Origin: Lama glama
Taxonomy: Eukaryota
Assembly: GCA_028534125.1 (NCBI GenBank)
Contig: CM052816.1
Location: 39,248,001-39,312,000 of the forward strand
Length of the DNA: 64,000 nt
Direction of reading: 5' to 3'
Shown here: positions 1 to 64,000 of the stretch, piece after piece
Layout: each line of letters opens with the position of its first letter
How positions within the stretch are numbered: the stretch's first letter is position 1
Notes under the pieces: model-generated
What the model saw: the letters and a program-made list of their open reading frames with translations, nothing else
Database searches by the model: none
What the model was told of the DNA's origin: nothing
Made by a program: the position numbers and the translations under genes

Positions 1-368
1 TTTTCTCCTTAGTCTGAAAACCCTTCTCCCCTGGCACCATTTGATTCAATTGTGTCTACATTAATTTACCTGAAAATTTGTTAATTTTGCTTCTTAAAGT
101 AATGTTTCTCAGTTTTGTTCTATGTTTTCTAAATTTTGGTGTGGTTAATATTTCATAAATTTTCTTTAATAAAATATATTTTAATGTATTTATACATATA
201 GTATATATATATTTTTAATAATGTATTTAATTAGTATAGTTTAAGTATAGTCAAAATGAAGTGATTGGAAGAAATAAGGAAGGTTATGTTAGGCAAGTGT
301 AATTTATAAGATATTTAAATTATTAGCTAAATTTTGATAAATTCACAATTTAATTTTTTTCCACAAAG

Positions 369-551
369 ATACTTGCGTAACACCAAAGAATAGAACCAGT
401 TGTACCACTTCAAGTTCTTCACTTTTCAACTACTTGTATGTCTTTATTTTGGGACAACTGTTGCTGGGAGTAGGAGGAACTCCTCTGTATACTCTGGGAA
501 CAGCCTTCATTGATGATTCTGTGCCCACACACAAATCTTCTCTCTATATAG
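369..551 (+). CDS. SLCO4C1: SLCO4C1 exon (~exon 3), 183 nt
   Basis: ttttccacaaag|AT..ATAG|gtaagt; [53 protein letters not shown]. Confidence 0.95.
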
Positions 552-3500
552 GTAAGTTTGCTCTCCAGTGTAAATGTCTCAGTATCATTTCATCTTGTTG
601 CATGTTTAATTCATAAGTAAAGCATAACATATGCTTATTAAAAAGTTAGTTGTGATTTCATAGGTATTTACATTAGATAAATACAATATTACTTTTTTGC
701 TTAATTATATACTGATGTATCATGATAAATCCAGTTATGATTTTTATTGACATCCTGCTTTATTTCCTGGGCTGGAAATGCCAGCCTTCCTGGAGGTGCC
801 ATCCAAGCAGTAGGCTGTCTAGATTGCTTGAATGAAGGCGGGCTACTTTATACAGGTGTGGAGATAAGAGCTCTGCCATCCTGCATGACTTACTTCATCC
901 TCCATGGGCTTGACTAGAGTCAACAAAAGAAACCACAAAATAGTACTCAGAAGCTCCTGTGCAGTTTTCCATTTCAGATTAATGCTTTTTATTTGTGACT
1001 CGATTTTTTTCCTTTGTGATCTAATTTTTAGCAGCACAAGTTTCTCTTAAATTCCATCCCTGAGGTTCCTGGAAGGGAGTGCTGACTAGACAATGCATGA
1101 CCCTACATCCAATTGATGCATAATTTATTTGCACATGAGTTTTCACTTTATCAGTCTATTATTCTAATGTAGGGGACTGTCTTAGTCCATTTGGACTGCT
1201 ATAACAGATTATCAAACACAGATTGGCTAATAAACAAGAGAAATTTATTTCTCACAATCCTGGAGGCTGGGAAGGGGAAGATGAGGGTGCCCACAGACTC
1301 ATTATCTGGTGAGGTCCCACTTCCTCGTTCACAGATAGCTGTCTTTTTGCTGTGACAGAAGGGACAAGGGAGCTCTCTGAGGCCTCCTCGTTAAGGGCAT
1401 TAATCCCATTTATGAGGGCTCCATTTTTATGACCTAATCCCTTCCCAAAGGCCACACCTCCAAATAGCATCACATTGGGGGTTAGATTTCAGCATATGAA
1501 TTTTGGGGTGACACAACATTCAGTCTCTATAGTCACTGGAAGTCAAGTGTGTTCAGTGCAGCCCTGATAGAACTAACTCTCCTTAGGCTCATCCCCAGTA
1601 AGGAAACCACTATATGTCAACCTGTTTTCTCTCCGTACTTTGCTTTGGTCTCTCCACAAGATCTGATGCTCTCTCTCTACAAGTTCTGGCTAATCTGTAC
1701 AACTTCTGCATTTACTCATTTAACAATGCTTTTATTTCAGTTAGCTAATAGTGGTGTTTTTCACTCTTCTGATTCACAGATATTCTTCCTGAGGTCCTCT
1801 CCTGATCAATATTTCTCATATGACAGTTTCAATCTTTATATTTTAGTAACACACAAAAATAGGAAGTTTTTCAAAAACTAAGCATGGCAGGGGGGTTGCA
1901 GACCCATGAGACCATCCCAGATTTGATATTCTCTAGGACTGACAGTTCTCAGGGCTATGGTTTATTACAGCAAAAGGATACAAAGAAAAATCAGCAAAGG
2001 GGAACGTTGCATGAGGTGAAGTACAGACAGAACCAAGTGCAAGCTTCCAAGGGTCCACTCCCTCCCAGTGGACCATACAGGTAGAATTGATTCCTCCAGT
2101 CAGGACTTCCGACAACATGTATGAAATGTTTTCTACCAGCTAAATTCATTAGAGAGTCAATGCTCAGGGATTTTATTGGGAGTTGATCATATAGGAACCC
2201 TCTGCCTTAACATTTGCAAAGCTGTAGACTCTCAGAAGGAATACAGGTGTTCAACAAAACCACACTGTTTTTATGAACAGCTTCAGCACAATGAGCCACC
2301 TCTATTAGTTAGGGAATGGTGGCATCCCTCTGGACATTTAAGATCCCAGATGCCAAACAAGGGCCAGCCTTTCATAAGTCTTTCTAAAGATGGAAGCCAC
2401 AAGCCTGCTGTGTTAACGTTTTCTTGTATTTTAAAAATTCATCAAATGGTAATTTTTGAGAGTAAAGGAAAAAACAAAAGTAACAAAACTGGGAAACTTA
2501 CTTTTTTTCAATTTCAGAAAACTGATACCTTTCATTGGATAACTATGTTTTGTTGAATGAGATCTTTCCTTTCTTATGCTGTTTATATTTGAACATTTCC
2601 CCATTTCCAAGACCTTCTTCCATTCTTTCTTTTAAAATAGTATCTATTACTGTTGGCAGACTTTCTTCTGTGTGAAACGCATTTTATGCATAGCAAGACA
2701 AAAATGGGCAAAATAGAAACAGTCAAAATTTGCTCCCTATTGGAATGAAGGAAAAAAAGTGTTTAACACAGCGTCTCGAGCCTCACAACCTTCCCTGTGC
2801 CATTCACTCTTCATGTCTTTGTCTTTAATGCTTTTCTTGGATTTACAATCTTTGCCCTTAAATTGAACTTTTAAATTCGTTTAATGTTATTTTTTTCTTT
2901 AAATTTTTCATCTTAATATGTGCTTCTTATTTGCCCTTTGTTCTTCTTTCTTGCCCTTTTATTCTTTTTGATAATTTAATATTTATTTTTCATTTTTCCC
3001 CTCTATTAACTTCCTAGGTGTATGCTCTTTTACTGTTCCTCTACTAATTACCTTACATGCAAACTTGATTTTATGAAATTCTAGTGTTAATTGATACTTT
3101 TACCACGTTCCTGATCATCACAAAGGTTTTAGAACCATTTAACTTTATTTATTCCTTTCCCAACATTTATTCAATTATTTCTGTGTACTGTAATACCTTA
3201 TATATGCATATTCCTGAAATAAAGTATTATTAATGTTTTGCTTAAAAATAATGATCCATTTTTGTCAACATGTTTATCTTTTTTATTGCTCTTCTTTCTT
3301 TGGCAACTCTTGAGTTTCAATCTGGGATCGTTTTCCTTTAACTTGAAGAGCAGTCTTGAGTTAATTTACTGGAACAGTCTGCTCATGATGAATTCTCTTA
3401 GTATTTTTGTCTAAAAATGATTTTTTTTTTACCCTCTCCCCTAATGAATATTCTCATTGGGAATAGATGACTATTTGGCCATTAATTTCCTTTCAGTACT

Positions 3501-6500
3501 TTAAAAGTACTGTTCCACTGCCTTTACTTCCACTGTTTCTTATGTGTGTTTGCGATTTTTAATATTCTTTTCTTCTTGCGTTTGACTTTCATTAGTTTTA
3601 TTCATTACGGGTGTATAGGTGCAAAGTTCCTTTTATCTAATTTTGGATTTAAATGACTTCATGAGTATGTTGCTTAATATTTTTCACTAGTTTGGAGATA
3701 TTTCCTATGATTATTAACATAACTCCTGCCCTATTATGTCCTCTCCTGGGACTCTAATTATTCCACTTACATGCATTCTAGGTCTTTTTAAAAAATAAAA
3801 AAAGTATTCTTTGCCTCTTATTCTTTTTTCTGTATTTTATATCTTTTTTTCTGTGCTCCTTCATAAATATTTACTGATTTAATAATGTATTTTCCAGTTT
3901 AGTAATACTCAGTTCAGTTTTGAATAATCTTGTGTGGATCTATTTCATTTTAGTTTTAACAAATATATTTTATAGTTCTAGAATTTTTTTTTCACTCTAT
4001 GTGTCTTTAAACTTTCCAGTCTTCATCCTACTTGGGGACACTGCAACCTGAGATGCCTTTTATTTAATTTCAGGGATTGAGTTTATTTGAAGCTAAGCTG
4101 TACGTACTCTGTGACTCAGTCTACTTCTAACCCAAACTTACTTTTAGAGTAGAGTCTCCTAGGCCAGGAAGCGTTTACAAGATACACTCCCTGAACTTTT
4201 GTTTCTCTTCTTGAGACAAAGAGTACAGGACAGTTTGCCCCCTCATTGCCTCTTGTAGAATCAGTCAGTGTACTCAGGAAAAAAGTCAGGCCCAGTATTT
4301 GTTGAATATCTCTCTTCTACAGAATCTTAACTCAGTGATACTTCATTATTTTTATCTTGTTGCCTTCGAGCATATATTTTAAAGTAATTTTTATAGTTTT
4401 TAAAAGTTTTTCTCAGTGGGCAGTTTGGTTGGAAACACTAGTCTACCATAGTCCATCCACTGTTGCCAGAATTTTAGATTTTGGTGTCATATCAAATTCA
4501 CCTTTCATCAATTGAAAACTTTAAGTTTTTTGCTTGCTGGATATATTTCTTTCATGAACTTATTTGTGAACATATGCAAAGCAGTCTCTGTTGCTAACTG
4601 TGGAATAATTGCTGAGCACTGGAGAAAGCAGGTGATCTAGACAGTGCTACTCAGTGTGTATCCCACATATCCACGACAGTATGCAAGAAGTCAAAACATA
4701 AAAATAAACTTAGAAACTTTTATAGCAGTTTTATACTTCCACAGAACTTTTAAGGTATCCTTACAAATGTATCAGTTCAAACCCAGTTGGAAGTAATTTA
4801 AAAAAAATTTGGAAATCACTGACTTTCAGCATGTTTAATTGTGTACTTTAACCCATGAAAATTTTTGAGCATGAATTGTGTATATATATATATACACACA
4901 CATGTATATATAGTTATTTATGATATGTGTGTATATATATATATATACTTTAACATTTTCTATTAATACAGTTTTTATACTTTAAAATATAGATCTAATA
5001 TAAATTAGGGTAGTTGATAGATAAGTAAAAGTTCTTATATGTTTTCAGATCATCTTGTGTGACCTCTGCTTTGGAGACTTGGTCTAGTACATAAGTCATT
5101 TTGCCATTGATATATGCTTGGCCCTATGTATGATATGCTCCTTTTCTTTCTTGTATGAGAGTGAGAATCTCAGTAGTTAATAAAAAAAATTCAGAAGGTG
5201 GTAATATACAAGGATACTGATGTGTGCATAATTTTTTTACAAAAATTAAAAAGTTATATATGGCAACATTTTAAATATCTGAGAGAAATAAGGTCAGTTT
5301 AATTCTGCTGCAAATAAAAATGGGAGATTCACTAAGGGCAAGAGTTTACATTAATGGTTTGCTTTGAAGAAACAGACTTTGTCCAGATCCAGGTTTTAAA
5401 TCAGCTGCCATAGTCCAAAATAAAGTATGCCTTTGGAGTGTGCACAGAGTGGAAAAGGCTTCTCATTTCACATTGTTTCTTCCATAAGAATTGTAGCTAA
5501 CAATTATTATCACTATTCTCAAAGGGTAATAGTAGATGTACTAACTACCCCTACTGCCAGTTAACATGATAAAACTTTCCATGGATTTGTAATTACTGAA
5601 TTTATTGAAATCAAAGAGAGTCTAAATATAGTCTAAAATGTTCTATGTTGAATTATATATTTTAAGCTCCTTGACTTGATAAGTGATATCACTCAGATGG
5701 TTTTTTTTTTAGTGAAAATGTGTGTAATTTTGATGTAATTCTAATCATTTCATTTTTCTACCATAAAATATTTGTCTTTCTTCACTTGTCAGACTTTCAA
5801 AGCAAAGTTGCACAAATAACCATTTTCAATGTCTTTGTTCTTCTAGGAATTGGATATTCCATGTCAGTATTAGGCCCTGCTGTTGGCTATGTGTTGGGAG
5901 GACAGTTGCTAACCATGTACATTGATGTTGATTTGGGACAAAGGCAAGGAAATATCTATTTTTCTTTTGTTTAAATTTATATTATTTTAATCATGTTTGT
6001 ATCATGGAACATTTTTTATGGTATTTCCTCGGAATATCATGAGGGATTTTTCAGGAAATAAAACTGAATACACACAATTTTTATGTAATATTTTGGCTGC
6101 ATTGCTTCATGAATTAATGCCATATCATCTCTTGGTATGATACATCTATTCATCCATAAGGATGCTTGATAGTTACCTGGTGAAATTTTCCAAAAAAGCA
6201 CCTAAGAGTGCATGCATTGTGCAAAAAGAATAATGTAATTGAAATTAGTTATGTTTTCGGTAGGCTCATCTGGAGGTGGAGAGCTTGAAGAGTGTCAAGA
6301 GTCTGTGATTCTCAGACTGAGTTCTGTGATATCTCTGATAATGTCATAGAGGTCATAGTTATTCAGTTTTAACAACATTGGCAATGGGGGGTAATAATAG
6401 GTAATGTTTATCCATTCCATACCAGACAACGTAGGTTTTGTGTGTAACCTTATTTTATATGTCATCGTATTTAATCCTCTTAATAATCTTACGAAATTGT

Positions 6501-9500: not shown

Positions 9501-12500
9501 TATTTGTCCCTTGTGGAAGAAGTGGTTGTTAGTGGTTGCTTGTTTTGAATTTGAGGTTAAAGAAACAAAAGTGTTATGATCTCTTTTATTGAACTCAGCA
9601 GAAAAGTATTCTATCTATTTAGCATCATGAAAGTTTTATACATAAGGGAGTTTATAATTTTACCTTTCAAGATTTGAAATCATTTACTTTTCATGACTTT
9701 TTTGCATCTCTCATGAAAGCCTTAAAGTGTTTTTATGCCATTCATCCCACCTTGTAACTCTCCTTCCTCCTTTCCCCTACAGGCACATTCTTGTGTTTTG
9801 CGAATATTGTTCATAATTTTAAATTTCAAGTATTATTATTTTCTTTTAGAGCAGTTCTGTTTCATATATTTCTATTTAATTTATTTTATAAATTCTTATA
9901 TATATGTATGTGTGTGTGTGTGTACATACAAAACCATCAAGAGTCGTTACTCACCATAGCTTTTTTTATCCTCATGTTCTCATGCTTTGAGATCTCAATT
10001 CTGATTCAGATTTCTGTGTATATAACATTTTATTGCTGGTTTTTCTCAGATAGGATGGTATCTAAGTACCCTTGAATGTCAAGATGATATCTCTGACTGG
10101 ATGAGTACTTTTAGATCATACTCCTTTAGTTCCAGTAGTCTGTGGGTGTTGTTTTGCTCTTTTCTAGTTAAATATGTTGCAATTGAGAAGTTCCATGTTA
10201 ATGTGATTCTTATTCTTTCTATCTGCAAATTTGTAAAATTTTTCAATTTATCTTTGATTTCAGGAAATTTACTAGGATATTCCTAAGTATGTATCTTTTT
10301 TCACTAATCCTTACTAGGAGTCCAATATCTTTTTCAATCTGAAAACTTAAATATTTTCTACTCATTATTTTTTTAAATTATTGCATGTTTTTGTTAACGT
10401 ATCTTTTACTTTTGTAGTATTGTTATTATGTTAGATCATCTGGCTCTGACTTCTAAATCTCTTATCTTGCCTTTTTGTGACTCTACTGTGTGTGTGTGTG
10501 TGTGTGTGTGTGCTTTGCTTGGTTTTATGAAATTTTTTTGCACTGAATATTTCAGAACTACATTTAATGGGTTTTCACTTTACGGTTAAATATAATAAAA
10601 TAACTGAATCTTTATATTTGCCCTCTGATAGGTTAATAAGATTCCGAGAACTCCAGCAATACAGACTCTTATTTAAAATTGCTGAGTTGTATACCTATCC
10701 AAGTTTCTTAACTACTGAGTCCTTTACTCATGAAACAATACTGCAAGTTTGATACTTAGAGACCATTCTTATCTTTGCTCACAGTCTGTTCTTCATTTAT
10801 TGGACACAGGAATTCAGAACACAATAAAAAAAATCAAATAAGGGGTAGATTTATTGAATGGAGATTTACAGTACGACTGGGGAAGAGAACTTTCCAGTCC
10901 AGCTTTTACCTCCTTTCCCTAGTCCCTTGCATATGATCAAGGCACATTCAGTAGATCAATCATCTGTCAATTCTCTAGGTGCTCAATGTATGAATGTTCT
11001 CAACACTGTATGCATATAAAGCTATTAATAATCAATATTTATACCTTTGTGCTAGAGGAAATGCTGAAATTTTACAGATAATTATATTGTATTTATTTAA
11101 GATTTGCTGTTTCATCATGCTACCTACCTTCTAATGGTGCATTTTGCAGTATAATCATAGTTATTCATTTGGTGAACTGTATTTTTTCTTTAGAATTTGA
11201 TGAGGAATACTGTCTTTATGTGTTTAGTTCTATCAACTTGTTCAGAAGCCTTAGTTACTACTGGATTTGCTACATTTTTACCTAAATTTATAGAAAATCA
11301 ATTTGGATTGTCTTCTAGCTCTGCAGCTACCCTTGGAGGTAAACAGTTTTCTTTTTTCTAACTTAATCTAATAATTTTACTTGACCACATTGGATGTTTA
11401 TTAAAATAGTATATAATTTTTGATAGCCCACTCCTAGAAGTTTAAATTTTATACTGTGTTTGATAAAAGCTCCCAGTTTTCTGACATTAGACAATCTGTT
11501 GTGTGGACTTGAGAGGTACAGAGGCTATACATAGAGTTAAAGAGAATATATCTTAATCTTAATATTCAAGGCATTAATTGTATTAATCTCTTACTTAATA
11601 TAAGTTATTTCCTCATATGCTTCTAAATCACGTGAATGCTTTCATGCGTTAAAACCATATTGATACTTGTTTTTGATGCTTTCCAGTTGTTGGTATAAAT
11701 TACTGAGTACACTTGTGTGTTTTCTTACTGTGTCTTCTTTCTCATTAGGGGCTGTTTTAGTTCCTGGAGCTGCTCTTGGTCAGATTCTAGGTGGTGTCCT
11801 TGTTTCGAAATTCAAAATGACGTGTAAAAACATAATGAAGTTTGCTTTGCTCACATCCGTAATTGCACTTATGCTGAGTTTTGTATTTCTTTATGCCAAC
11901 TGTGAAAATGAGCCATTTGCGGGTGTGTCTGAATCATATAATAGGTAAGTATATTTTACTGCTTTTTGATATTAGTATCAGAGCAATAAACTACGTGGAT
12001 ATTTCCAAGTGTGTACTTTCTTAAATAAAATGATGAGACATTGGCTTCTTTTTTTAACTGGAAGGCTGCTTTTTCCTATATAAGACTATGTAGTTTTTAT
12101 TTTTAGTTTCAATAATTGAAATCATATTAAAAGTTGAGTATTTTTTTAGACAGCATTTAAGAAACAGCTATTCTGTATTGAGTACTATGCTCAAGGATAC
12201 AAAGATTAATATTACAGAATCTTTGTCCATAATGGATTCAATATCCTAGAAAGAATTTCACATTATATGTTTCTATTGATTTAAATTTTAAAACTCCCTA
12301 TGGTGAGTTCTTTTCTTATTGAAATTAGACTAGGAGAGAAATTAAAATGAAGCTAGTACTAGGTGATACTAATCATTGTAGTTACTTTAGAAGTTCATGT
12401 ATATTGCAGAGAAATAAATAACTTGTTGTTCTGACCTGTAGACATGTTTCCATCTATAACTGGTTTGACCATATTACCTTTCTTTGCCTTGTCTGTTTTG

Positions 12501-53599: not shown

Positions 53600-54105
53600 A
53601 ATGAAGTATAGTTGATTTACAATGTTATATTAGTTTCAGGTATATAATACAGTGATTCAATATTTTTTACAGATTATACTCCATTTAAAATTATAAAGTA
53701 ATGTCTACATTTCCCTGTGCTATACAGCATATCCTTGTAGCTTATTTATTTTATATATCATAGTGTGTACGTCTTCATCTCTTACCCTGTCTTGCTCCTC
53801 TCTCTCTTGTTCCCTTCCCTCTCCTCACTGGTAACCACTAGTTTGGTGCTTTATATCTGCGAGTCTATTTCTGTTTTGTTATATGTGTTCATTTGTTTCA
53901 TTTTTTAGAATCCACAATACGGGATAACACAGAGTATTTGTCTTTCTCTGTCTGATTTATTTCACTAAACATAATACTCTCTAGGTCAATCCACATTGTT
54001 GCAGACGGGAGAATTTCATTCTTTTTATGGCTGAATAATATTCCATTGTATTATACACCACATCTTCTTTATCCATTCATCTGTTGATGGAGACTTAGAT
54101 TGTTT
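53600..54105 (-). mobile_element. L1 3' end
   Basis: tgaagtatagttgatttacaatgtt..ttccctgtgctatacag..ccattcatctgttgatgga. Confidence 0.85.
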
Positions 54106-55619
54106 ATCTCTTATACACTTTAAAAAATGTTTAGCACAGACCTAAGCATAAGATGTATGCTTAATTCATAATTTTGACTTGATGTGGTTTATCTGACCTT
54201 AAAATGGCTGTCTGCAAGATGGTGTGGGTCAACTTACAAAGTGATTTCTTTTCAGAGTCTCCTCTGTCCTTACAATTCCTTTGAAACTATCCAGGATACT
54301 GTCCCCTGACTCTATCTGGGCCTTGAGGAGGACATACAAATAAGTGGGTCACTGTCTGTCCTTTTTCCTCCTATCTTCTTTTAGAATCTGTAGGGCCATA
54401 TTTTGTAGCTTTTTCTTCCTTTTTTGTTTTCCTTTGCTGAATCACTAAGACTTTTCATTGTATTTTTGGAAAGATGGTTTTATGCTTTCTACTTCCTCTT
54501 TATTGTATCCTTATTGCTGACTCCAGGCTCACAACTCACCGTCATATTTTCACATCCAACTGCCAAAGCAAGTCCAATACCTGGGCCCCCAGAATCAGAA
54601 TAGGTACTGTTACAGAATTATTATATGTATAATTATATATGTAATTATATGTGTATATTTTACATATTATATTTTTATATGTGTATATATTTTTATGTAT
54701 AATATTAATAGCAGGTATGTTGTTACGTGTAATATTGTATCACTCCTCTTCCATTAATTAGTCCTAACTTTTTTCTCTTTTTTCATGTAAAATACTGTGT
54801 AAAGACAGGTGTACCAAAAACGTTTGTAAAATACTATTTGCCCTGTGTGACTGAGAATAGTTGTTTCAGTTAATGAATGTGTCATCACACTGTTTGTCAT
54901 GTAATATACTTTTTTATGTATACAATTTGATGAGTTTGTAAATAAGTATACACCTGTGAGACTGTCACTTATAACCTATGCCATAAACATACCAATCACC
55001 TCCAAAAGTTTCCTGACATCCTCTTTACTTTTTATTACCTGATACCACTTATATGAGAAATATAAAACAGGATTTTTAAGGAAGAGAGAATAAGACATCA
55101 TTTCAATAGACTGTAATTTGTTTAATCTTTAATAATTTTTTTATTTTGGGACAGTTTTACATTTATAGAGTTTTTACACAAAAAATTTACAAATAAACTA
55201 GAGAGTTCCCCTTATTACATTAATGAACTAATGTTGATACATTATTATTTACTAAAATCTATATTTTACTCAGACTGCCTCAGTTTTTTCCTAATGTTTT
55301 CTTTACCAGGATCATCCAGTAGTCATGTTTCCTTAGGGTCCTCTTGATTGTGATATTTTCTCAGAATTTCCTTATTTTCTATGATTTTGATAGTTTTGAG
55401 AATTACTGGTCAAATATTTTGTAGAATGTCTCTCAAGTGGGATTTGTTTATTGCTTTTGTCAAGAGAAGACTGGGTGATGGGTTTGGGGAAGAAATATGC
55501 CCAAGGTAATGTGGCATTTTCATCACATCATATCAAGATCACATTACTGTTGATGTTACCTTAATGCTATTTGTCAGGTTTCTCTTTGTTTTTTGTTTTT
55601 GTTTTTTGTTTGTTTGTTT

Positions 55620-56150
55620 GTTTTTTGATGCTCTCTGCCAACCTCTATCTTTTATTTGGTGTATTTAAGCCATTTACATTTAAGATAATTATTGATATGT
55701 TAGGGTTTAAGTTTGCTGTTTATTTTCCTTTTGTTTCTTCTGTTACTTTTTCATTCCTTCTTGTGAGTTAATTGAACATTTTTTAGGATTCCATCTTCAT
55801 TTATTTACAGTGTTTTTGAGTGTATAGTTCACATAGTTTTCTTAGTGGTTGCTCTGAGTGTAACAGTGAACAGCATAGCCTCTCAGAGTTTGCCAGTTCT
55901 ACCATCTAGAACTTTCATTGAGGACCTTTACTCTCCATGCTTTTAAATAGCATTGTCTTGAGTGTCTGCTGGTGTTAAAATTTTTGTCTTAGTCATCACA
56001 TATGATTTAGAAAACTCATGAGAAGAAAGCCAGTGTATTGCATTTACCCATTTTTCTGTTCTTTCCATTTTTCTCTTTCTTTCCTGATGCTCCAAGATTC
56101 TTTCTTTGATCATTTTCTTTCTGTTCAAGAACTCCTTTTAGCCATTCTTT
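55620..56150 (-). mobile_element. Old L1MC/L1M fragment (left part; resumes at 58047-58145 after the retrocopy)
   Basis: ..aagaactccttttagccattcttt | aatagtcaggcttctagtgacaaactct..atctttatttctcctt..tgaaggatagtttc is collinear with the recalled antisense L1M consensus. Confidence 0.75.
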
Positions 56151-58035
56151 TTATTTTTGTGGGATTCTTGTGACTTTTAATTCTTATTTAACTCATGTTT
56201 TGCTTACATGTGGGGAGTAAAGATGAGGATGGAGTAAGTGAAAGGAAGAAGAGAACAGTATGTGCTAGGAGAAGAAAGTTCAGTAAAAGCATCACACACA
56301 TCCTCATCACCACAGAGCTCTTAATAAAGAACTGTGACAGAGATACGGCAACTCTTTAGCTCTGGGGGAAGCGACTTCAACAGAATTCATCCTACATCAA
56401 ACTTGGCACACCTGGAACACTGGGCAATGCAGCTGTTATACAGCTGGGCAGATGAAAAGTTGGCTGTCCAGAGTCTACTTCCTAGCGTGTGATCAAAAGT
56501 TGTGTCCCTTCTCTGGTGTGATTACCTCCAGCAGAAAAGGACACCCCACCAACCATGGAACAATGAGAAACTGTTGGGCAAGACTCTTACAAAAGAGAAA
56601 GATTTCTTTTTTATATTTTCTGGTGATGTTAATTGAGCAGAAGTGACATCTTTTCCTTTTGGGCAGTAGCATTGTGTCCTGGTGATAAAATAATCTACAA
56701 TTAGCACTCGTAAAAAGGGTAGGAGAATGGAAACAGGCTTCCTTAGGACCTAGTCTAGTGGGAAGGGGACTGTGTGGGTTCTAAGAGTAACGGCATGAAA
56801 AAGCGAATTCTAATGAACTGACATAGATAAATAAGAACTTGGCTTTTTCTCTTCCTACAAATACACGCCTCTTCTAGTTTATACTACTAAATCTAAGGTC
56901 AGCTTAATTACAGCCTGGGTAACTATTATTGTGCTTTTAAAGTTAAGCTGAAAATCTCCACTCTTAATAGTTTCCTCTCCTAATACTACACTAATCTGTT
57001 TATTTTCCTGAGTGTTAGAAAGGGATATATGGAAATAAGACAGGGGTGAGAGAGAAAGTGTCCATCCAACAAACACCTATCATTTGCAACTAGTTCTATC
57101 AGAAGGGCGTCAGGTGTGGACCATTGACTTATCCTTGGCAGTGAGATGATACAGCTGAGTGAGAGCTGAGTATAGTGCGTTAACAAAGGTTTTCATTTTA
57201 ATTGACAGCAAACGATGATGATGACAGATATAGCACTTTAGTTTGGGCTTCCCTCGAACCTGAAACATCCATTGCTGTGAAGTCCGAGCTTTAGGGGAGA
57301 AAGCTGTATTCTTAGCAACTGCTTTGCGATCACTCTAGGACTGCAGTTTGCTCCAATCTGGGGTGTGGTTTTCTTATTAGAGAAAGTCTAAGTATTCAAC
57401 AGTAAATGAGACTGAAACCTTGACATTTATAGTGGTAACAGGTGTTTTGGTTCAGCAACAGGCTGTTTCACAAGTCAAACGTGTAATATTCCGTTTTAAG
57501 CAGTAACTATTTCAAGCAACAGAATTATATTTTTTGACTTAGAAATGGTGCTTTCTTCTTTATTGGAATTTCTCCGGTTTCTTAGTACATATTACTGCCT
57601 CCTCCAATATGTCTTTAAAACCGTCCCGTTTCTGGGCGGTTTTCTCTGAGACCACTTTAAATGTTCCGAGTCTCCAGGTGGTGCAACTTCTTGTGGGGCG
57701 TGGGCGGCGTGGGCGGCGTGGGCGTGGGCCGCGCAGCTGCTGCGGGCTGAGGCGGGCGGTTGAGTTCCGGTTCCGGTCCGTGGGGAAGCCGCCAGGCTCA
57801 GTTCCAACTGGACGGACGCTGCGGCAGGCGAGGCCCAGTGGAGCTGCTAGGCCGAGTTGCTGACCACGGAGAAACCACGTTGCGGCGGGACAGCGACTGT
57901 GTCGGCCCTGGAGAGACGCGAGGACCGGCCTGGAGGTAGGGAAGGCGGCGCGGGCGGTGCTCTGAGCTGGGGGGAGTGGGCTCAGGGGCCGCGCGCGGTG
58001 AGGCCGAGGCGAGGAGAGCGGCGCCAGGGCAGCCC
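56151..58035 (-). pseudogene. Processed retrocopy of an unidentified polyadenylated transcript (no long AUG ORF)
   Basis: Poly(A) remnant 56151-56158; ATTAAA at 56181-56176; TSD agccattcttt 56140-56150 / agcccgtcttt 58036-58046; TTT|AA L1 endonuclease-type site; interrupts an L1. Confidence 0.8.
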
Positions 58036-58045
58036 AGCCCGTCTT
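57600..58045. promoter_or_regulatory. CpG island with promoter-type motifs
   Basis: Dense CpG; (GCGTGGGCG)x3 at 57698-57724; GGGCGG boxes; tandem TTCCGG 57765-57776. Confidence 0.75.
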
Positions 58046-58166
58046 TAATAGTCAGGCTTCTAGTGACAAACTCTTTTTCACTCTTCCTTTGTCGGAGAAC
58101 ATCTTTATTTCTCCTTTCTTGTTGAAGGATAGTTTCGGTGGACCTCAGCTTTCGTACTTTGCTTTC

Positions 58167-58709
58167 TGTCAGGATTCCGGTAGTAGCAACTGCTGGGAAA
58201 CAAACTGCTTCACAAATCAGCAGTTTAAAATAACAAGCGTATATTTAACTGTGGTTCTGTAGGTGTGCAGGTCAGGCAGGACTCTGCCGCGGACTTGGTT
58301 TGTTTCAGCGGGGTTTCCTCCTTTATGTGAAGTCAGTTACAAGTGCCTGGGTAGTTGTGCTTTGTGAGTTGGTTGGCTCTGAGCCTGGGCGCCTTCGCTG
58401 CTCGCGTGTCTAGTCTTCTGCGTGCGTCTCTCGTGCTAGACCGGGTCACGTGGCAGTGATAGGGATACAGGAGAGAAAGGAAAACTTCCCAAGTTTCTTG
58501 AGGCTCAGGCATGGAATTGGCACAGCACAGTCTTCAGTTGCATTCTATTGGCTAAAGGCAAGTTCCACATCCATCTGTGTACACAGGGGTGTGGGGCCAG
58601 ATGCCACCCTTTAAAATGGGAGGATCAACGAAGTCAGATGGCAAAGCGAGTGGGTACAAATGGGAAGAGTGAAAAGGGTGGCGAGGCACTTCTGAAATAG
58701 TCTCTCGCA
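58167..58709 (-). mobile_element. MLT1G/H-like MaLR LTR
   Basis: ..gaggctcaggcatggaattggcacagcac..tgcattctattggctaaaggcaagt..tgggaggatcaacgaagtcagatggcaaag. Confidence 0.65.
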
Positions 58710-59586
58710 AATATCTTAGAATGCCAGGCCTCGCCTGCCATGGTGGGCCTTTGATGTAAAAAATGTTTTAATCATTTTTATTTATTCTCTTTGTTCTTAC
58801 TAGGAAGGTTGATCTGATACAATTTAATCCTCTGGAGTTAGAAGCAGAAAAGTCCTCCACTGATATTTTTAAAACATGAATTTTGGAAGAGGTGGTGTCA
58901 AAAGCTCAGAAAAAATGAAAACCAATGAATTGCTGAAGTAGTAATTAGTAAAAGCTCATTTTGCACACACCAGAAGATAGTTCGTGAACCAGGAGCACTC
59001 AAACCAAAACGTGGAATGAAGCTCAGGGGTATATTGTTATAAAGCAACTTGTATAGTGAGAAGGCCATGACTTAATTTTGCTTATGATTTCCAGAGGCAC
59101 AAACAAGAAATGGCCCAGCTGAAGGTAGTCTTGCAAAATCAGCTAAATTAAGCTCTGTTCATAGCAAACTGGTTTTGTCTGCTCAGGGAATTTTCCAGGC
59201 TGGTCTTGTTTTTTTTAACAGTGGAAAGATTATTTGCACTTTTGGAAAAGGTAACTATCTCATTCATAAGACTATAAATGATACAAACTGCTTCAAAAAA
59301 AGTTCAAAGCACCTTTGATTTCCTTTGTGTAAGATGAAAACAAGAATTAAGATAATTTTGCAACAGCTGCCTAATCAAGATAGAAATAGAGACATAACAG
59401 GAACATGGCAATCATTGTTGTGAGAGAGAAATAGCATATATTCAGGGAATCAAGATGAAGCCATGGATTTGTGTCCAACTTCATGACTGAGTAAATGAAC
59501 TGAGACATCAGGAACCACGGTAAACACAAGGAGAGGGGAAAGCAGAGTTCTTTACAGTGCTAATGCTTGTGTTTTTTTACTATTGA

Positions 59587-60124
59587 TGTTGCAGAAAAAT
59601 GTGTTACAGCTCGGTGTTACAGTTCAGTTGTGACAGCAACCTGGATCAGGGCGAGAAACCAAGCAGAACTCCGAGAGCTGGAGAACTCAGGTTTATTACG
59701 TCAGCGGGCCCAGAGGAGTTAACACTTCAAGCTCTGGACCCCGTCTGTAGGTTTACACAGGCCTTTTATAGGCTGCCAGTTTTACACTTTGCAACATCAT
59801 ATGCAAATAAAGTACAACAGAAGTTGACCAACCAGGAACAAGCTTTGTAGAAATAGACCAATCAGGAGTGAGCTCCTTGCAAATGAAGTACTACAAATGG
59901 ACCAATCAGAAGTTAGGAAAGTGGACCAATCAGAAGTGAGAGTAGTAACCAATCAGGAGTGAAGGAAAGTGAGCTCAGGGAACCAATAGAATTCTAGGTG
60001 TAAGCAGCTTTAGAGGCAAAAAGTGAGATAGAGCCTCTGGGCCAGGGAACTGGAGGCTAGTGGGAGGAGAGCAGCAGCCCTGCCTAGCGGTTCTGCCAGT
60101 CTTTTTATGGGGCTTCCTGCCTCA
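59587..60124 (-). mobile_element. ERV1-class solo LTR, intact, 4-bp TSD
   Basis: TG..CA ends; TSD ttga 59583-59586 / 60125-60128; minus-strand TATAAAA 59770-59764 and AATAAA 59697-59692; five CCAAT boxes. Confidence 0.85.
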
Positions 60125-60369
60125 TTGAAATGGAATTATTTTCTTAGGCTAAAGAGCAACAGTGAGGCAGGTCACACACTCTTACATTTAGTTAGCCCAA
60201 ATTCAACACTGTATTTCTCATGACCTTTCTTTTACAATATGTAACAGGACAGTTCTTTATAGTGGTTTGTAATAAAAGTAAATTAAAAGTCATTTTTCTT
60301 ATTGTATTATCACAAATATACAACTTAAGAAAATTGTGTTTTATTTGGGACTAACAGATACACTTTATG

Positions 60370-60560
60370 ATACATGAAGTAGATAAACAGAGGCCTACTG
60401 TATAGAACAAGAAACTATATTCAGTTTCTTATTATGAGCTGCAATGGAAAAAAACCTGAAAAATTATATATGTATGTATATGTATAACCAAATCCCTTTG
60501 CTATATACCTGAAACAAACATTATAAATTGACTGCACATCAATTAAAAATAAGAATTAAA
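60370..60560 (+). mobile_element. L1 3' end fragment
   Basis: agataaacagaggcctactgtatagaacaagaaactatattcag..tttgctatatacctgaaac. Confidence 0.7.
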
Positions 60561-61639
60561 CATCATGAAAAAAACCCAAAAATTATCCCTAGTCTAGATA
60601 TCTTTCCTACCAGGAAAGATAACTAGACTATTTGCTTTGTAAATAATAAAAACAAATATAAATATATTGTAGTTCATACAGCGAGCACAATTTTTTTTCA
60701 AGTGTCAACATGGATGTGAAAAGAATTAAACAGGAAAACTGAAATCAATCCTAATAAGTATAGTAATGAGAGTAAGTGATGCAAACTTTTTCTTGATAGC
60801 AGAGAGTCTCAGGTTTGACTGTTGAAAACCACTGTAATTCAACAACATAGCATTTGCAAGCTAGAGATCTTGGAAAAACATTAGGTAACAATGAAAGATA
60901 CAGTGAATTGAATTCAATTAAAATTAAAGGAAAGCATGGATAACAAATAATAAAATACAATAACAATAATCATTATGTAATAACAAATAGAAGTCTTAAT
61001 GCTGAATAATATAAAACCAAAATGTAAAAAACAAATTTCTGTAAGCAAAAGAATTTATAAAAGTGTATTGTATTTGGAGAGTAAAAAAAAATAAATTGAA
61101 TCTGTAACTGATCAGGTAGATAAAATTTAAATGAGAACCTGCTGTATAATAAGCACCAAAATAATCTTTAGTTAAATTGATATAAATACTTCAGTAAATA
61201 AGTAGAACCAATAGATGTATGTTGTATTTTATATGGTGTAGTCAGTAGTTTTTCATATATTCATGGGATGTTTTCCACCAATGCCAAATATTACATACTA
61301 GACCACAAAAAGTTTAATAAATGTTTAAAAAATACTGATGTAAAATATAAACCAAAAAAAATCAAGAAACTCTGCTAAACACATGGGGAAAGATGATGGA
61401 GCTGATTAAAGGAATTCTGGTCCTTATTTTAATATTTCCCAAGATCGTTCCAGATGGCCAGCATGAGTTAAAATATATTTTTGATAATCATGTTAAAGTA
61501 CCACTTTCCATCAACAGTAAATTAAAAAAATACACTGCAATGAAGATTTTCACTGGAGATTTATATAAAATCTGTAATTTTTTTCATGAAACACAATAAA
61601 AAGGAAAACAAAGTTATATATATCTTATAAATCTCTTCC

Positions 61640-62870
61640 CTCCCTCCCTCACCTCGGGCATCCATCTGTTTGTTCACTGTATCCATGACTCTGTTTCAGC
61701 TTTGTTCTATTTGTTCATTTTTGTTTTTTAGATTCCCCATATAAGTGAAGTCATACAGTATTTGTCTTTCTGTCTGACTTCACCATTCATAATATCCTCT
61801 AGATCCATCCATGTTGTCACGAATGGCAAGATTTTATTCTTTTTTTTATGGCTGAGAATTGTTTCATTGTATATATAGACATCTTGTTTATTCATTCATC
61901 TGTTGACAGGCACTTTGGTTGCTTCCATATCTTGGCTATTGTAAATAACAGTGAACAGTGTGAACAGTGGGGTACATATATCATATTTTTTGGACAAATA
62001 ACCATGAGTGGAATTTCTTGATTGTATGGTATTTTTTTTACTTGGGTTGTTTGTGTGTTTAATGTTGAGTTGCATGAGTTCTTTGTATATCTTGGACAGT
62101 AACCATTATTGGCTATGTCATTTGCAAATGTCTTTTCGCATTCAATGGGCAGCCTTTTTATTTTGTTAATAGTTCCCCTTCACTGTGCAGAAGTTTTCTG
62201 GTTTGATTAGGTCCCATTTGTTTATTTTTGCTTTTGTTTTTTTTGCCTGAGGAGACAGATCCAAATAATACTACTCATATGTCAGAGAGTGTACTGCCTA
62301 TGTTTTCTTCCAGAAGCTTTGTGGCCTCAGGTCTTATATGTAAGTCTTTAATACATTTTGAATTTATTTTTGTATATGATGTGAGACACTAGTCTAGTTT
62401 GATTGTTTTGCATGGAGCTGTCCAGCTTTCCCAGTACCATGTATTGAAGAGTCTGTCTTTTCCCCATTATGTATTCTTGCCTCCTTTGTCATAGATTAAT
62501 CACTCATAAAAAGGCGGGTTCATTTCTAGGCTCTCTGTTCTGTTTCATTAATCTGTGTGTCGATTTTTGTGCCAGTACCATAATGCTTTGATGACTGTAG
62601 CTTTAGTTTGAAATTAGGGAGTGTGATATCTCCAGCTTTGTTCTTTAGATTATTTTGGCAGTTCTTGGGTCTTTTGTGTTTCCATACAAATTTTAGAATT
62701 ATTTGTTCTAGTTCTGTGAATAATACCATTGGTATTTCCATAGGGATGGCATTGAAGCTGTAGGTTGCTTTGGGTAGTGTGGTCATTTTCACAATATTAA
62801 TAAGCAACATATCTTTCTGTCTGTTTTTGTCATCTTCATTTTCTTTCATCAGTGTCCTATAGTTTTGACT
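61640..62870 (-). mobile_element. L1 ORF2/3'UTR fragment
   Basis: ORF track [45 protein letters not shown] = L1 ORF2. Confidence 0.9.
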
Positions 62871-64000
62871 TTATTCTTCATCTTATACTTGGTGCTTTTC
62901 TCACCAGCCCAATTCAGGCTTCTGCTGAGGGAAAGGCAACAAGAGAAGATAAGCAAGACACCAGGTTTAGAGGAAGACGCTCATGTACTTATAGAATTCC
63001 CTGAGCCAGCTCAAGAATAGACAGAGTGACTTTACTTTCTTTTTCAGGTCTCTGTATCTGGTGACTTAGTGTCACTTGTCGGTAATAAGACCCCGAGTGG
63101 AGCCACAATACCCGCGGCTTCACGCTCGTTGTTGTCCAGGGCAGCTGTAGACATGTACCTTTCTTTTACTCTGAGGCTTATTCAAGTGGTGTCCACATTT
63201 GACTGTTTCAGTAAAGGAACGTTAAACAATGAAAAGGTGTATGTGATGAGAGTAAAACTAGTTGAAGAAGACCCATGAAAGTAGTCAGAAAGATGAATGT
63301 TATCCAAGGGTTCTATGTTCATTAACCAATTAGGATTTTCATATCAGTTGTACTGTCAGACCAAATGGGTAAGTTTTTCAGAGCCTGCCCTGTGAGCTCA
63401 ACTGACAATCACAAAATTAGGCTGCATGCTTTTCAAATTCATACACATCACCAGCAATAAAAATTCTGAAGTCTGAATAAGTTTGCAATTACACTGGTGC
63501 ATAAGGAAGATCAGAACACAAAGGGCTAGTCTTTGCAGTACTCACTTTCTTCATCAAGGCTTCCAGGAAGTAAGGGCATTGGTACTGTTCTATACATTTA
63601 TGAGGGAGCTGGGAGGGGCTCAGCTATGACTTTGTATCAAGGTGAAAATCCAGAGGTAAAAGGCTTGTGTCTCTTTGGTTAACCTTGTGAACATCTCCCG
63701 TATTCCTCTCTGCAGAGCTGGCCCTCCCCATGATGGCTGCTGGCTGTGAAAAGCATGGGTGTGTGTCTGTCACTGTGGCTGATGCCCACCTCTACAATGC
63801 CATTGTCAGTGCCTTAACCTAGGTTCTGATAGTCACAAAGTTGGGACCCAAAGTGATGGGTGCTGTAGCCCCTACAGCTGTGCTGAGTGTTTAGGACTGG
63901 GGAGAATGTTGATTTTCTGATTCAAGCTTATATTTTCTTAAAGACTAGAACCAAACATAGTATGTCATGAATATGGCTCAAGTATATATGCTTGCAGCCC

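What the first reader, a model, noticed from the sequence alone, without database searches (positions are those of the whole stretch)
56140..58046. 1.9-kb retrocopy of an apparently non-coding RNA inserted into an old L1
Seen in sequence: the antisense L1M stops at ..tagccattcttt (56150) and resumes at aatagtcaggcttctagtgacaaac (58047). The insert has an 11-bp TSD (2 mismatches), a TTT|AA target, a short degenerate poly(A), ATTAAA about 17 nt upstream of a CA cleavage point, and a GC-rich 5' end. These are hallmarks of L1-mediated retroposition of a near full-length transcript. Unlike typical processed pseudogenes, I find no recognisable protein CDS, so the parent may be a lncRNA, a divergent/antisense promoter transcript, or a micropeptide mRNA.
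Basis: partly seen in the sequence, partly recalled or inferred. Interest (0 to 1): 0.72.

Follow-up and report, generated by a model that had tools for sequence, protein, structure and literature searches.

The report
Old alpha-internexin processed pseudogene in L1
The 1.9-kb insert is an ordinary, old reverse-transcribed copy of the messenger RNA of a neuronal filament gene (alpha-internexin) that lost most of its coding part, not a copy of a non-coding RNA.

Summary
Window 56151-58035 is a minus-strand insert in an old L1, with an 11-bp target-site duplication (9 of 11), a CTTT|AA nick site, an 8-nt A-rich tail and ATTAAA. Uninterrupted L1 copies elsewhere carry the two flanks side by side with one copy of the 11-mer.

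The parent is a protein-coding gene, alpha-internexin (INA), at C23:46517422-46529071.
- Insert nt 1-376 derive from the INA 5'UTR plus the start of exon 1 (63.7% identity, collinear).
- Insert nt 377-1885 derive from the last ~43 codons plus the 3'UTR (81%), ending at the parent's own ATTAAA and cleavage site.
- An internal deletion removed the rest of exon 1, exon 2 and the start of exon 3. Its origin is unresolved.

A second, younger, full-length INA pseudogene lies on C4. C32 holds a segmental duplicate of this locus, not a parent.

One feature is not routine. The exon-1-derived 376 nt is still a CpG island (GC 0.72, o/e 0.93) with GC-biased substitutions and a 9-mer GC-box repeat. Overall this is an ordinary processed pseudogene of low interest.

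The parts
58036..58046 (-). 5'-side copy of the target-site duplication (AAAGACGGGCT on the minus strand)
   Evidence: sequence. Uninterrupted L1 copies carry one such 11-mer between the flanks.
57660..58035 (-). Segment derived from the INA 5'UTR (about 75 nt) plus the first ~100 codons of exon 1 (head domain and start of the rod). Still a CpG island.
   Evidence: Collinear alignment to C23 exon 1: 62.9% over 248 nt, E 1.4e-14; 63.7% globally; four-way alignment. GC 0.72, 42 CpG, o/e 0.93. Two stops in the parental frame.
57697..57724 (.). Tandem 9-mer GGCGTGGGC x3.1 (GC-box-like), absent from the parent and shorter in the C32 duplicate
   Evidence: TRF, 100% matches; alignments.
57530..57659 (-). 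Segment derived from the last ~43 codons of INA exon 3 (tail domain). The junction with the exon-1 part is at about 57659/57660. The lower boundary is approximate.
   Evidence: The remnant KTAQKRDGFKDILEEAVICTKKPEK matches the INA tail at 14 of 25 positions, E 7e-7 (tail).
56159..57529 (-). INA 3'UTR-derived segment, with a 266-nt deletion (near window 56980-57000) relative to both the parent and the C4 pseudogene
   Evidence: 75-76% identity by BLAST. 81.1% over 1482 aligned sites in the global three-way alignment, with the 266-column gap.
56176..56181 (-). ATTAAA polyadenylation signal inherited from INA
   Evidence: The same ATTAAA stands at the same place in C23 and as ATTAAC in the C4 pseudogene.
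56151..56158 (-). Degenerate poly(A) remnant (AAAAATAA)
   Evidence: The C4 pseudogene has A11 at the equivalent point.
56140..56150 (-). 3'-side copy of the target-site duplication (AAAGAATGGCT)
55850..56139 (-). Host L1 (old family), part downstream of the insertion point
   Evidence: 191 candidates, 40 scored, 71-85% identity, most at 73-77%.
58047..58142 (-). Host L1, short part upstream of the insertion point
   Evidence: matches cover query 59-165 only.

Best explanation
Window 56151-58035 (minus strand) is a dead, old processed pseudogene of the neuronal intermediate-filament gene alpha-internexin (INA). An INA mRNA, running from its normal start site to its normal ATTAAA-directed poly(A) site, was reverse-transcribed by L1 machinery. 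Priming occurred at a CTTT|AA nick inside an older L1, and the event created an 11-bp target-site duplication. The copy lacks both introns. It also lacks the stretch from about codon 105 of exon 1 to about 43 codons before the stop, so only 5'UTR, head-domain start, tail end and 3'UTR remain. Whether that internal deletion arose in the RNA, during reverse transcription or later in the DNA is not resolved. It predates the segmental duplication that copied this locus to C32. What is shown: the parentage, the boundaries and the insertion hallmarks. What is inferred: the age (roughly 50-120 million years, see the For line) and the lack of function.
For: Parent. Insert nt 377-1885 match C23:46527222-46529071 at 75-76% identity. 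Insert nt 137-373 match C23 exon 1, in the same order and orientation. The C23 gene has Pfam Filament (E 2.5e-84) and Filament_head. Its exon-1 product is 96-99% identical to proteins named alpha-internexin.
Retrocopy nature. The intervals between the C23 exon matches (about 7.2 kb and 1.3 kb, exon blocks) are absent. The 3' end coincides with the parent's ATTAAA and with the tail start of an independent INA pseudogene on C4. The 5' end aligns within 2-3 nt of the C4 pseudogene's 5' end, about 75 nt upstream of the ATG and about 25 nt downstream of a TTAAAA box.
Insertion. The TSD and the empty site in other L1 copies are shown.
Age. In the three-way alignment, private changes are window 193, C4 97 and INA 57 of 1439 sites. 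K2P is 0.221 for window-INA and 0.134 for C4-INA. The 50-120 My range assumes neutral rates of 1-2.2e-9 per site per year (my assumption).
Decay. There are two stops in the parental frame, and no Pfam family matches the insert's ORFs.
Against: Identity of the exon-1-derived part to the parent is low (63.7%). No protein-level search recognises it: 0 of 119 matches fall in the window, so that part rests on a collinear DNA alignment (E 1.4e-14 under lenient scoring against 20 kb). The exon1-exon3 junction is not a normal exon junction. A plain dead pseudogene would be expected to lose GC and CpG, yet this part keeps GC 0.72 and CpG o/e 0.93, above the younger C4 pseudogene at 0.70-0.75. Complete lack of function is therefore not shown.
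Confidence: 0.93

Rival explanations
1. One reading: a retrocopy of a non-coding RNA (lncRNA, promoter-antisense transcript or micropeptide mRNA).
For: No long ORF with a Pfam family in the insert. The protein-level search does not find it.
Against: Both halves are homologous, in order, to INA mRNA, from its 5'UTR to its poly(A) site. A tail-domain remnant is still readable. An independent full-length INA pseudogene on C4 shares the same 5' and 3' ends.
Confidence: 0.01
2. A chimeric retrocopy made by L1 reverse transcriptase switching templates between two different RNAs: a GC-rich 5' RNA plus the INA 3' end.
For: The abrupt junction at insert nt 376/377. At first, the only strong match to nt 1-452 was a different contig, C32.
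Against: C32 is a segmental duplicate of this very locus, including the L1 flank and the junction. The 5' part aligns to INA's own 5'UTR and exon 1. Both parts therefore come from one mRNA species in natural order. A jump within or between INA templates remains a possible cause of the internal deletion.
Confidence: 0.02
3. The pseudogene is dead as a gene, but its exon-1-derived CpG island is alive. It stays unmethylated in the germ line and works as an orphan promoter, sense through the INA 3'UTR to the inherited ATTAAA, or antisense. It would then resemble retrocopy-borne CpG islands such as PPP1R26P1 in RB1.
For: 376 nt with GC 0.72 and CpG o/e 0.93; the C32 duplicate has 0.89. Only 15 of 42 of its CpGs are CpG at the aligned INA site, against 23 of 28 in the C4 pseudogene. 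Private substitutions are GC-biased here (W>S 38 of 84 sites, S>W 31 of 188), unlike the same copy's 3'UTR part (W>S 82 of 771, S>W 82 of 497) and unlike C4. A GC-box-like 9-mer was tripled.
Against: The two duplicates differ more in this part (88.7% identity) than in the flanks (91-94%), so there is no sign of sequence constraint. Part of the W>S excess may be an alignment artefact at 64% identity. No Pfam-bearing ORF lies within 30 kb downstream. No methylation data were available. GC-biased gene conversion would give the same pattern without any promoter.
Confidence: 0.2

Closest known systems
L1-mediated processed pseudogenes (retrocopies) of protein-coding genes
   Same: No introns, poly(A) remnant at the parent's cleavage site, inherited ATTAAA, 11-bp TSD, TTTT|AA-type nick site, parent on another chromosome-scale contig, stop codons.
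   Different: A large internal deletion joins mid-exon 1 to late exon 3, so under a third of the CDS is left. The tail is only 8 nt.
The second INA processed pseudogene in the same genome (C4:4835887-4838990, minus strand)
   Same: Same parent, same 5' start and same 3' end.
   Different: C4 is younger (K2P 0.134 against 0.221). It keeps exons 1+2+3 joined in full, has an A11 tail, and its CpG o/e has fallen to 0.70-0.75.
Retrocopy-borne CpG islands that act as promoters (PPP1R26P1 in RB1 intron 2, PMC3839921, abstract seen in a search listing; parent-inherited retrocopy promoters, about 3% of expressed retrocopies, Carelli et al. 2016, PMC4772013, passages read)
   Same: A truncated retrocopy carries CpG-island sequence from the parent's 5' end into an AT-rich region, and it persists as a CpG island.
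   Different: Here neither promoter activity nor methylation state was tested. The resemblance rests on composition only.

Membership tests
L1-mediated processed pseudogene | Derived from a spliced mRNA of a parent gene located elsewhere (introns absent) | tested here: met
   The parent's exon-1, exon-2 and exon-3 matches on C23 lie about 7.2 kb and 1.3 kb apart. The insert joins exon-1 and exon-3 sequence directly. The junction is not a canonical exon-exon junction.
L1-mediated processed pseudogene | 3' end at the parent's polyadenylation site, followed by a poly(A) tract | tested here: met
   ATTAAA and the end point are shared with C23 and the C4 pseudogene. An 8-nt AAAAATAA remnant follows.
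L1-mediated processed pseudogene | Target-site duplication flanking the insert, with an empty site shown | tested here: met
   The 11-mers match at 9 of 11. Uninterrupted paralogous L1 copies L028-L030 have the flanks contiguous with one copy of the 11-mer. An orthologous empty site in outgroup species could not be tested.
L1-mediated processed pseudogene | L1 endonuclease-type target (TTTT|AA) | tested here: met
   The + strand reads cattcttt|aatagtc once one TSD copy is removed.
L1-mediated processed pseudogene | Loss of coding capacity | tested here: met
   About 350 codons are deleted. There are two stops in the parental frame of the exon-1 part, a premature TAA in the tail remnant, and no Pfam hit.
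   The parent is alpha-internexin, with Filament and Filament_head domains.
Retrocopy-borne CpG-island promoter | Meets CpG-island criteria (length over 200 nt, GC over 0.5, o/e over 0.6) | tested here: met
   376 nt, GC 0.721, o/e 0.927.
Retrocopy-borne CpG-island promoter | Unmethylated, and transcription initiates in it | not testable with these tools
   No methylation data were available. 

The most novel reading that the evidence does not exclude
The exon-1-derived CpG island carried in by this dead INA retrocopy has been kept, and partly rebuilt, for tens of millions of years in an AT-rich L1 landscape. It shows GC-biased substitutions, new CpGs and a tripled GC-box 9-mer, and it also survives in the C32 duplicate. 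The reason would be that it is an active, unmethylated orphan promoter driving a non-coding transcript, for example a sense RNA carrying about 1.4 kb of INA 3'UTR-like sequence.
Probability: 0.15. Interest if true: 0.4.

Novelty: new member of a known kind. Interest (0 to 1): 0.15.

Why it matters
It matters little. It shows that an apparently non-coding retrocopy can be a coding-gene pseudogene hidden by an internal deletion. It also shows that DNA-level search within the same genome resolves such cases where translation-based inspection fails. The locus gives a dated marker (an insertion followed by a segmental duplication) for this chromosome region next to an OATP/SLCO gene. The persistent CpG island is a modest candidate for studying how retrocopies seed orphan CpG islands.

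Tried and rejected
1. C32 as parent. It gave the best match to nt 1-452 (84%) but is a segmental duplicate of the window locus. The duplication covers window 55153 to at least window-equivalent 80699, at 91-94% identity, with three deletions in C32.
2. Protein-level detection. A genome search with the INA exon-1 product gave 119 matches, none in the window. Pfam on 35 window ORFs gave nothing in the insert.
3. Rfam on window 54000-61000: 0 matches.
4. Expression. The look-up of sequencing runs listed two RNA runs from one study (X15, X16) with shares of 0.20-0.21, and smaller shares in X17-X20. Nothing was laid, so these shares are not evidence of expression.
5. Downstream gene search. 49 ORFs of at least 75 aa in the 30 kb beyond the window gave 0 Pfam families.
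6. Origin of the internal deletion. A GT...AG reading of the parental breakpoints is possible (C|GTGCGC ... GGAG|GC) but needs two further changes. I saw no microhomology by eye and ran no systematic test. This remains undecided.
7. Earlier findings of this scan: none for this genome.
8. Literature. 'alpha-internexin' plus 'processed pseudogene' returned one unrelated paper. The search on internal deletions and template switching was not followed up.

Full report
OBSERVATION. On the + strand an old L1 stops at ...agccattcttt (56140-56150) and resumes at aatagtcagg... (58047). The 11-mer agcccgtcttt (58036-58046) repeats the first at 9 of 11 positions. The insert is read on the minus strand. 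Its GC-rich 5' end is at 58035 (GC 0.64-0.72 over 57600-58000). Its 3' end is an 8-nt A-rich remnant (56151-56158), preceded by ATTAAA (56176-56181) about 17 nt before a CA. With one TSD copy removed, the + strand reads cattcttt|aatagtc, a CTTT|AA nick site.

I tested the empty site in paralogous L1 copies. The left flank has 191 first-look candidates in the genome and the right flank has 15 matches. I blasted both flanks against 21 fetched loci.
- Eleven loci showed both flanks.
- In L029, L030, L028 and L014 the flanks abut with about 9-13 nt of overlap at the TSD. In L018 they also abut, with about 2 nt of overlap.
- In the other six, only part of a flank aligned or the pieces lay apart.
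- Ten loci showed one flank only.
Read directly, L028-L030 carry one copy of AAAGA(A/C)TGGC(T/C) between the two flank sequences.

WHAT IT IS. A search of the window's own genome (2.35 Gb) with the insert gave three sets of matches:
- nt 377-1885 at 75-76% to C23:46527222-46529071;
- the same part at 72-74% to C4:4835887-4837688;
- nt 1-452 at 84% to C32:6091416-6091859.

The DNA just upstream of the C23 match reads as the end of an intermediate-filament rod followed by a tail domain. C23 has an ORF starting at L009:423, whose first 355 residues correspond to exon 1. They carry Pfam Filament (E 2.5e-84) and Filament_head (E 2.7e-15). They are also 96-99% identical to proteins that their sources name alpha-internexin (the best named hit is 99%). 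C23 is therefore the INA gene.

The C4 locus matches C23 exon 1, exon 2 and exon 3 contiguously, without the intervening 7.2 kb and 1.3 kb. Identities are 78-83% for exon 1, 90.7% for exon 2 and 84.5% for exon 3. It ends in A11. It is an independent, full-length INA processed pseudogene.

With sensitive settings, insert nt 137-373 align to C23 exon 1 (62.9% over 248 nt, E 1.4e-14). A four-way alignment shows the insert is collinear with INA. It runs from about 75 nt upstream of the ATG, within 2-3 nt of where the C4 pseudogene begins and about 25 nt downstream of a TTAAAA box. It continues to the codons for ...HQLETQN at the start of the rod. It then jumps to the tail codons ...KKTSQIGESFEEILEE..., the stop and the 3'UTR.

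The tail remnant still matches as protein (14 of 25 identities, pairwise E 7e-7). The exon-1 part does not:
- there are two stops in the parental frame;
- no Pfam family matches;
- a protein-level genome search with the INA exon-1 product gave 119 matches, none in the window.
The 3' end coincides with the parent's ATTAAA and with the tail start in C4. A further 266 nt of 3'UTR, present in both INA and C4, are missing from the window copy.

C32 IS NOT THE PARENT. C32 carries the same L1 flank, the same L1/insert junction and the same exon1/exon3 junction. It is collinear with the window from 55153 onward, to at least 16.7 kb beyond the window's end, at 91-94% identity. Three stretches present in the window are absent from C32. 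The largest, window 55483-57583, removes the 3' 1.4 kb of the retrocopy. C32 is thus a segmental duplicate of at least 25 kb, made after the insertion and after the internal deletion.

MECHANISM. The following are shown: an INA mRNA spanning start site to poly(A) site is the template; both introns are absent; and the TSD, nick site and tail remnant are those of L1 target-primed reverse transcription.

The age is inferred. In a three-way alignment of the 3' part, private changes are 193 (window), 97 (C4) and 57 (INA) of 1439 sites. K2P is 0.221 for window-INA and 0.134 for C4-INA. The window copy is therefore the older of the two. With assumed neutral rates of 1-2.2e-9 per site per year (my assumption) it is roughly 50-120 million years old.

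The origin of the internal deletion is unresolved. It could be a cryptic splice of the template, a jump of the reverse transcriptase, or a later genomic deletion. A GT...AG reading of the parental breakpoints is possible but not compelling at this divergence.

THE ONE NON-ROUTINE FEATURE. The exon-1-derived 376 nt keep GC 0.72 and CpG o/e 0.93 (42 CpG). The C32 duplicate has o/e 0.89 and the parent's exon 1 has 0.97-1.0. The younger C4 pseudogene has already fallen to 0.70-0.75.

Only 15 of the 42 CpGs are CpG at the aligned INA position, against 23 of 28 in C4. Private substitutions here run W>S at 38 of 84 sites and S>W at 31 of 188. The same copy's 3'UTR part shows the usual pattern (S>W 82 of 497, W>S 82 of 771), and C4's exon-1 part shows S>W 20 of 164 and W>S 8 of 51. 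A GC-box-like 9-mer, GGCGTGGGC, stands in 3.1 perfect copies. It is absent from INA and shorter in C32.

This looks like a CpG island that is being maintained rather than decaying, whether through germ-line hypomethylation, promoter activity or GC-biased gene conversion. Several points count against function:
- the duplicates differ more here (88.7% identity) than in the flanks (91-94%);
- some of the W>S excess may be an alignment artefact at 64% identity;
- no Pfam-bearing ORF lies in the 30 kb downstream.

COMPARISON WITH WHAT IS KNOWN. This is a processed pseudogene in every tested respect (see the membership table). It is unusual only in its internal deletion. Retrocopies that bring part of a parental CpG island or promoter with them are described. 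Carelli et al. 2016 (PMC4772013, passages read) report that about 3% of expressed retrocopies inherited a parental promoter and that many retrocopy promoters lie in orphan CpG islands. PPP1R26P1 in RB1 (PMC3839921, abstract seen in the listing) is a truncated retrocopy whose CpG island is a promoter. Membership in that class is untested here. One search for 'alpha-internexin' plus 'processed pseudogene' found no relevant paper. That does not show the pseudogene is undescribed in genome annotations.

VERDICT. A modest open question remains about its persistent CpG island.

Noticed in passing
window 341-613, 5687-5971, 11664-11945 (+): Three ORFs match Pfam OATP (PF03137; E 1.5e-16, 4.3e-7 and 1.2e-18) at successive profile positions. 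These are exons of an organic-anion transporter (SLCO-type) gene on the + strand. The retrocopy lies more than 40 kb downstream of these exons.
   Followed up: partly
window 55153-64000 and beyond (to C1:39328699); C32:6091087-6111223: A segmental duplication of at least 25 kb between C1 and C32 at 91-94% identity, in the same orientation. Window 55483-57583, 58128-58822 and 59096-60788 are absent from C32. Its right end was not reached.
   Followed up: partly
L011/L012 = C4:4835887-4838990 (-): A second, younger, full-length INA processed pseudogene. Exons 1+2+3 are joined, it has an A11 tail, there are stops in frame, and it is 78-91% identical to the parent.
   Followed up: partly
window 58143-58830: A stretch of about 690 nt between the L1 remnant and the next duplicated block. 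It is unique in the genome (self-match only), absent from the C32 duplicate, and moderately GC- and CpG-rich (GC 0.43-0.53, o/e about 0.52-0.57). Its origin is unknown.
   Followed up: partly
L038:7575-8344 (window-equivalent about 71575-72344): A cluster of overlapping long stop-free frames (85-169 aa) on both strands with no Pfam match. It may be another GC-rich island inside the duplicated block.
   Followed up: no
window 56151-58800: DNA runs labelled as five different coded organisms (A-E) hold 0.84-1.00 of the sampled words, so the filled site is shared by close relatives.
   Followed up: no
many short contigs of G000 (e.g. C174159, C215227, C352812): Dozens of sub-kilobase contigs carry intermediate-filament-like fragments in near-identical pairs, some with stops. 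They look like unplaced or duplicated assembly fragments of filament or keratin genes.
   Followed up: no
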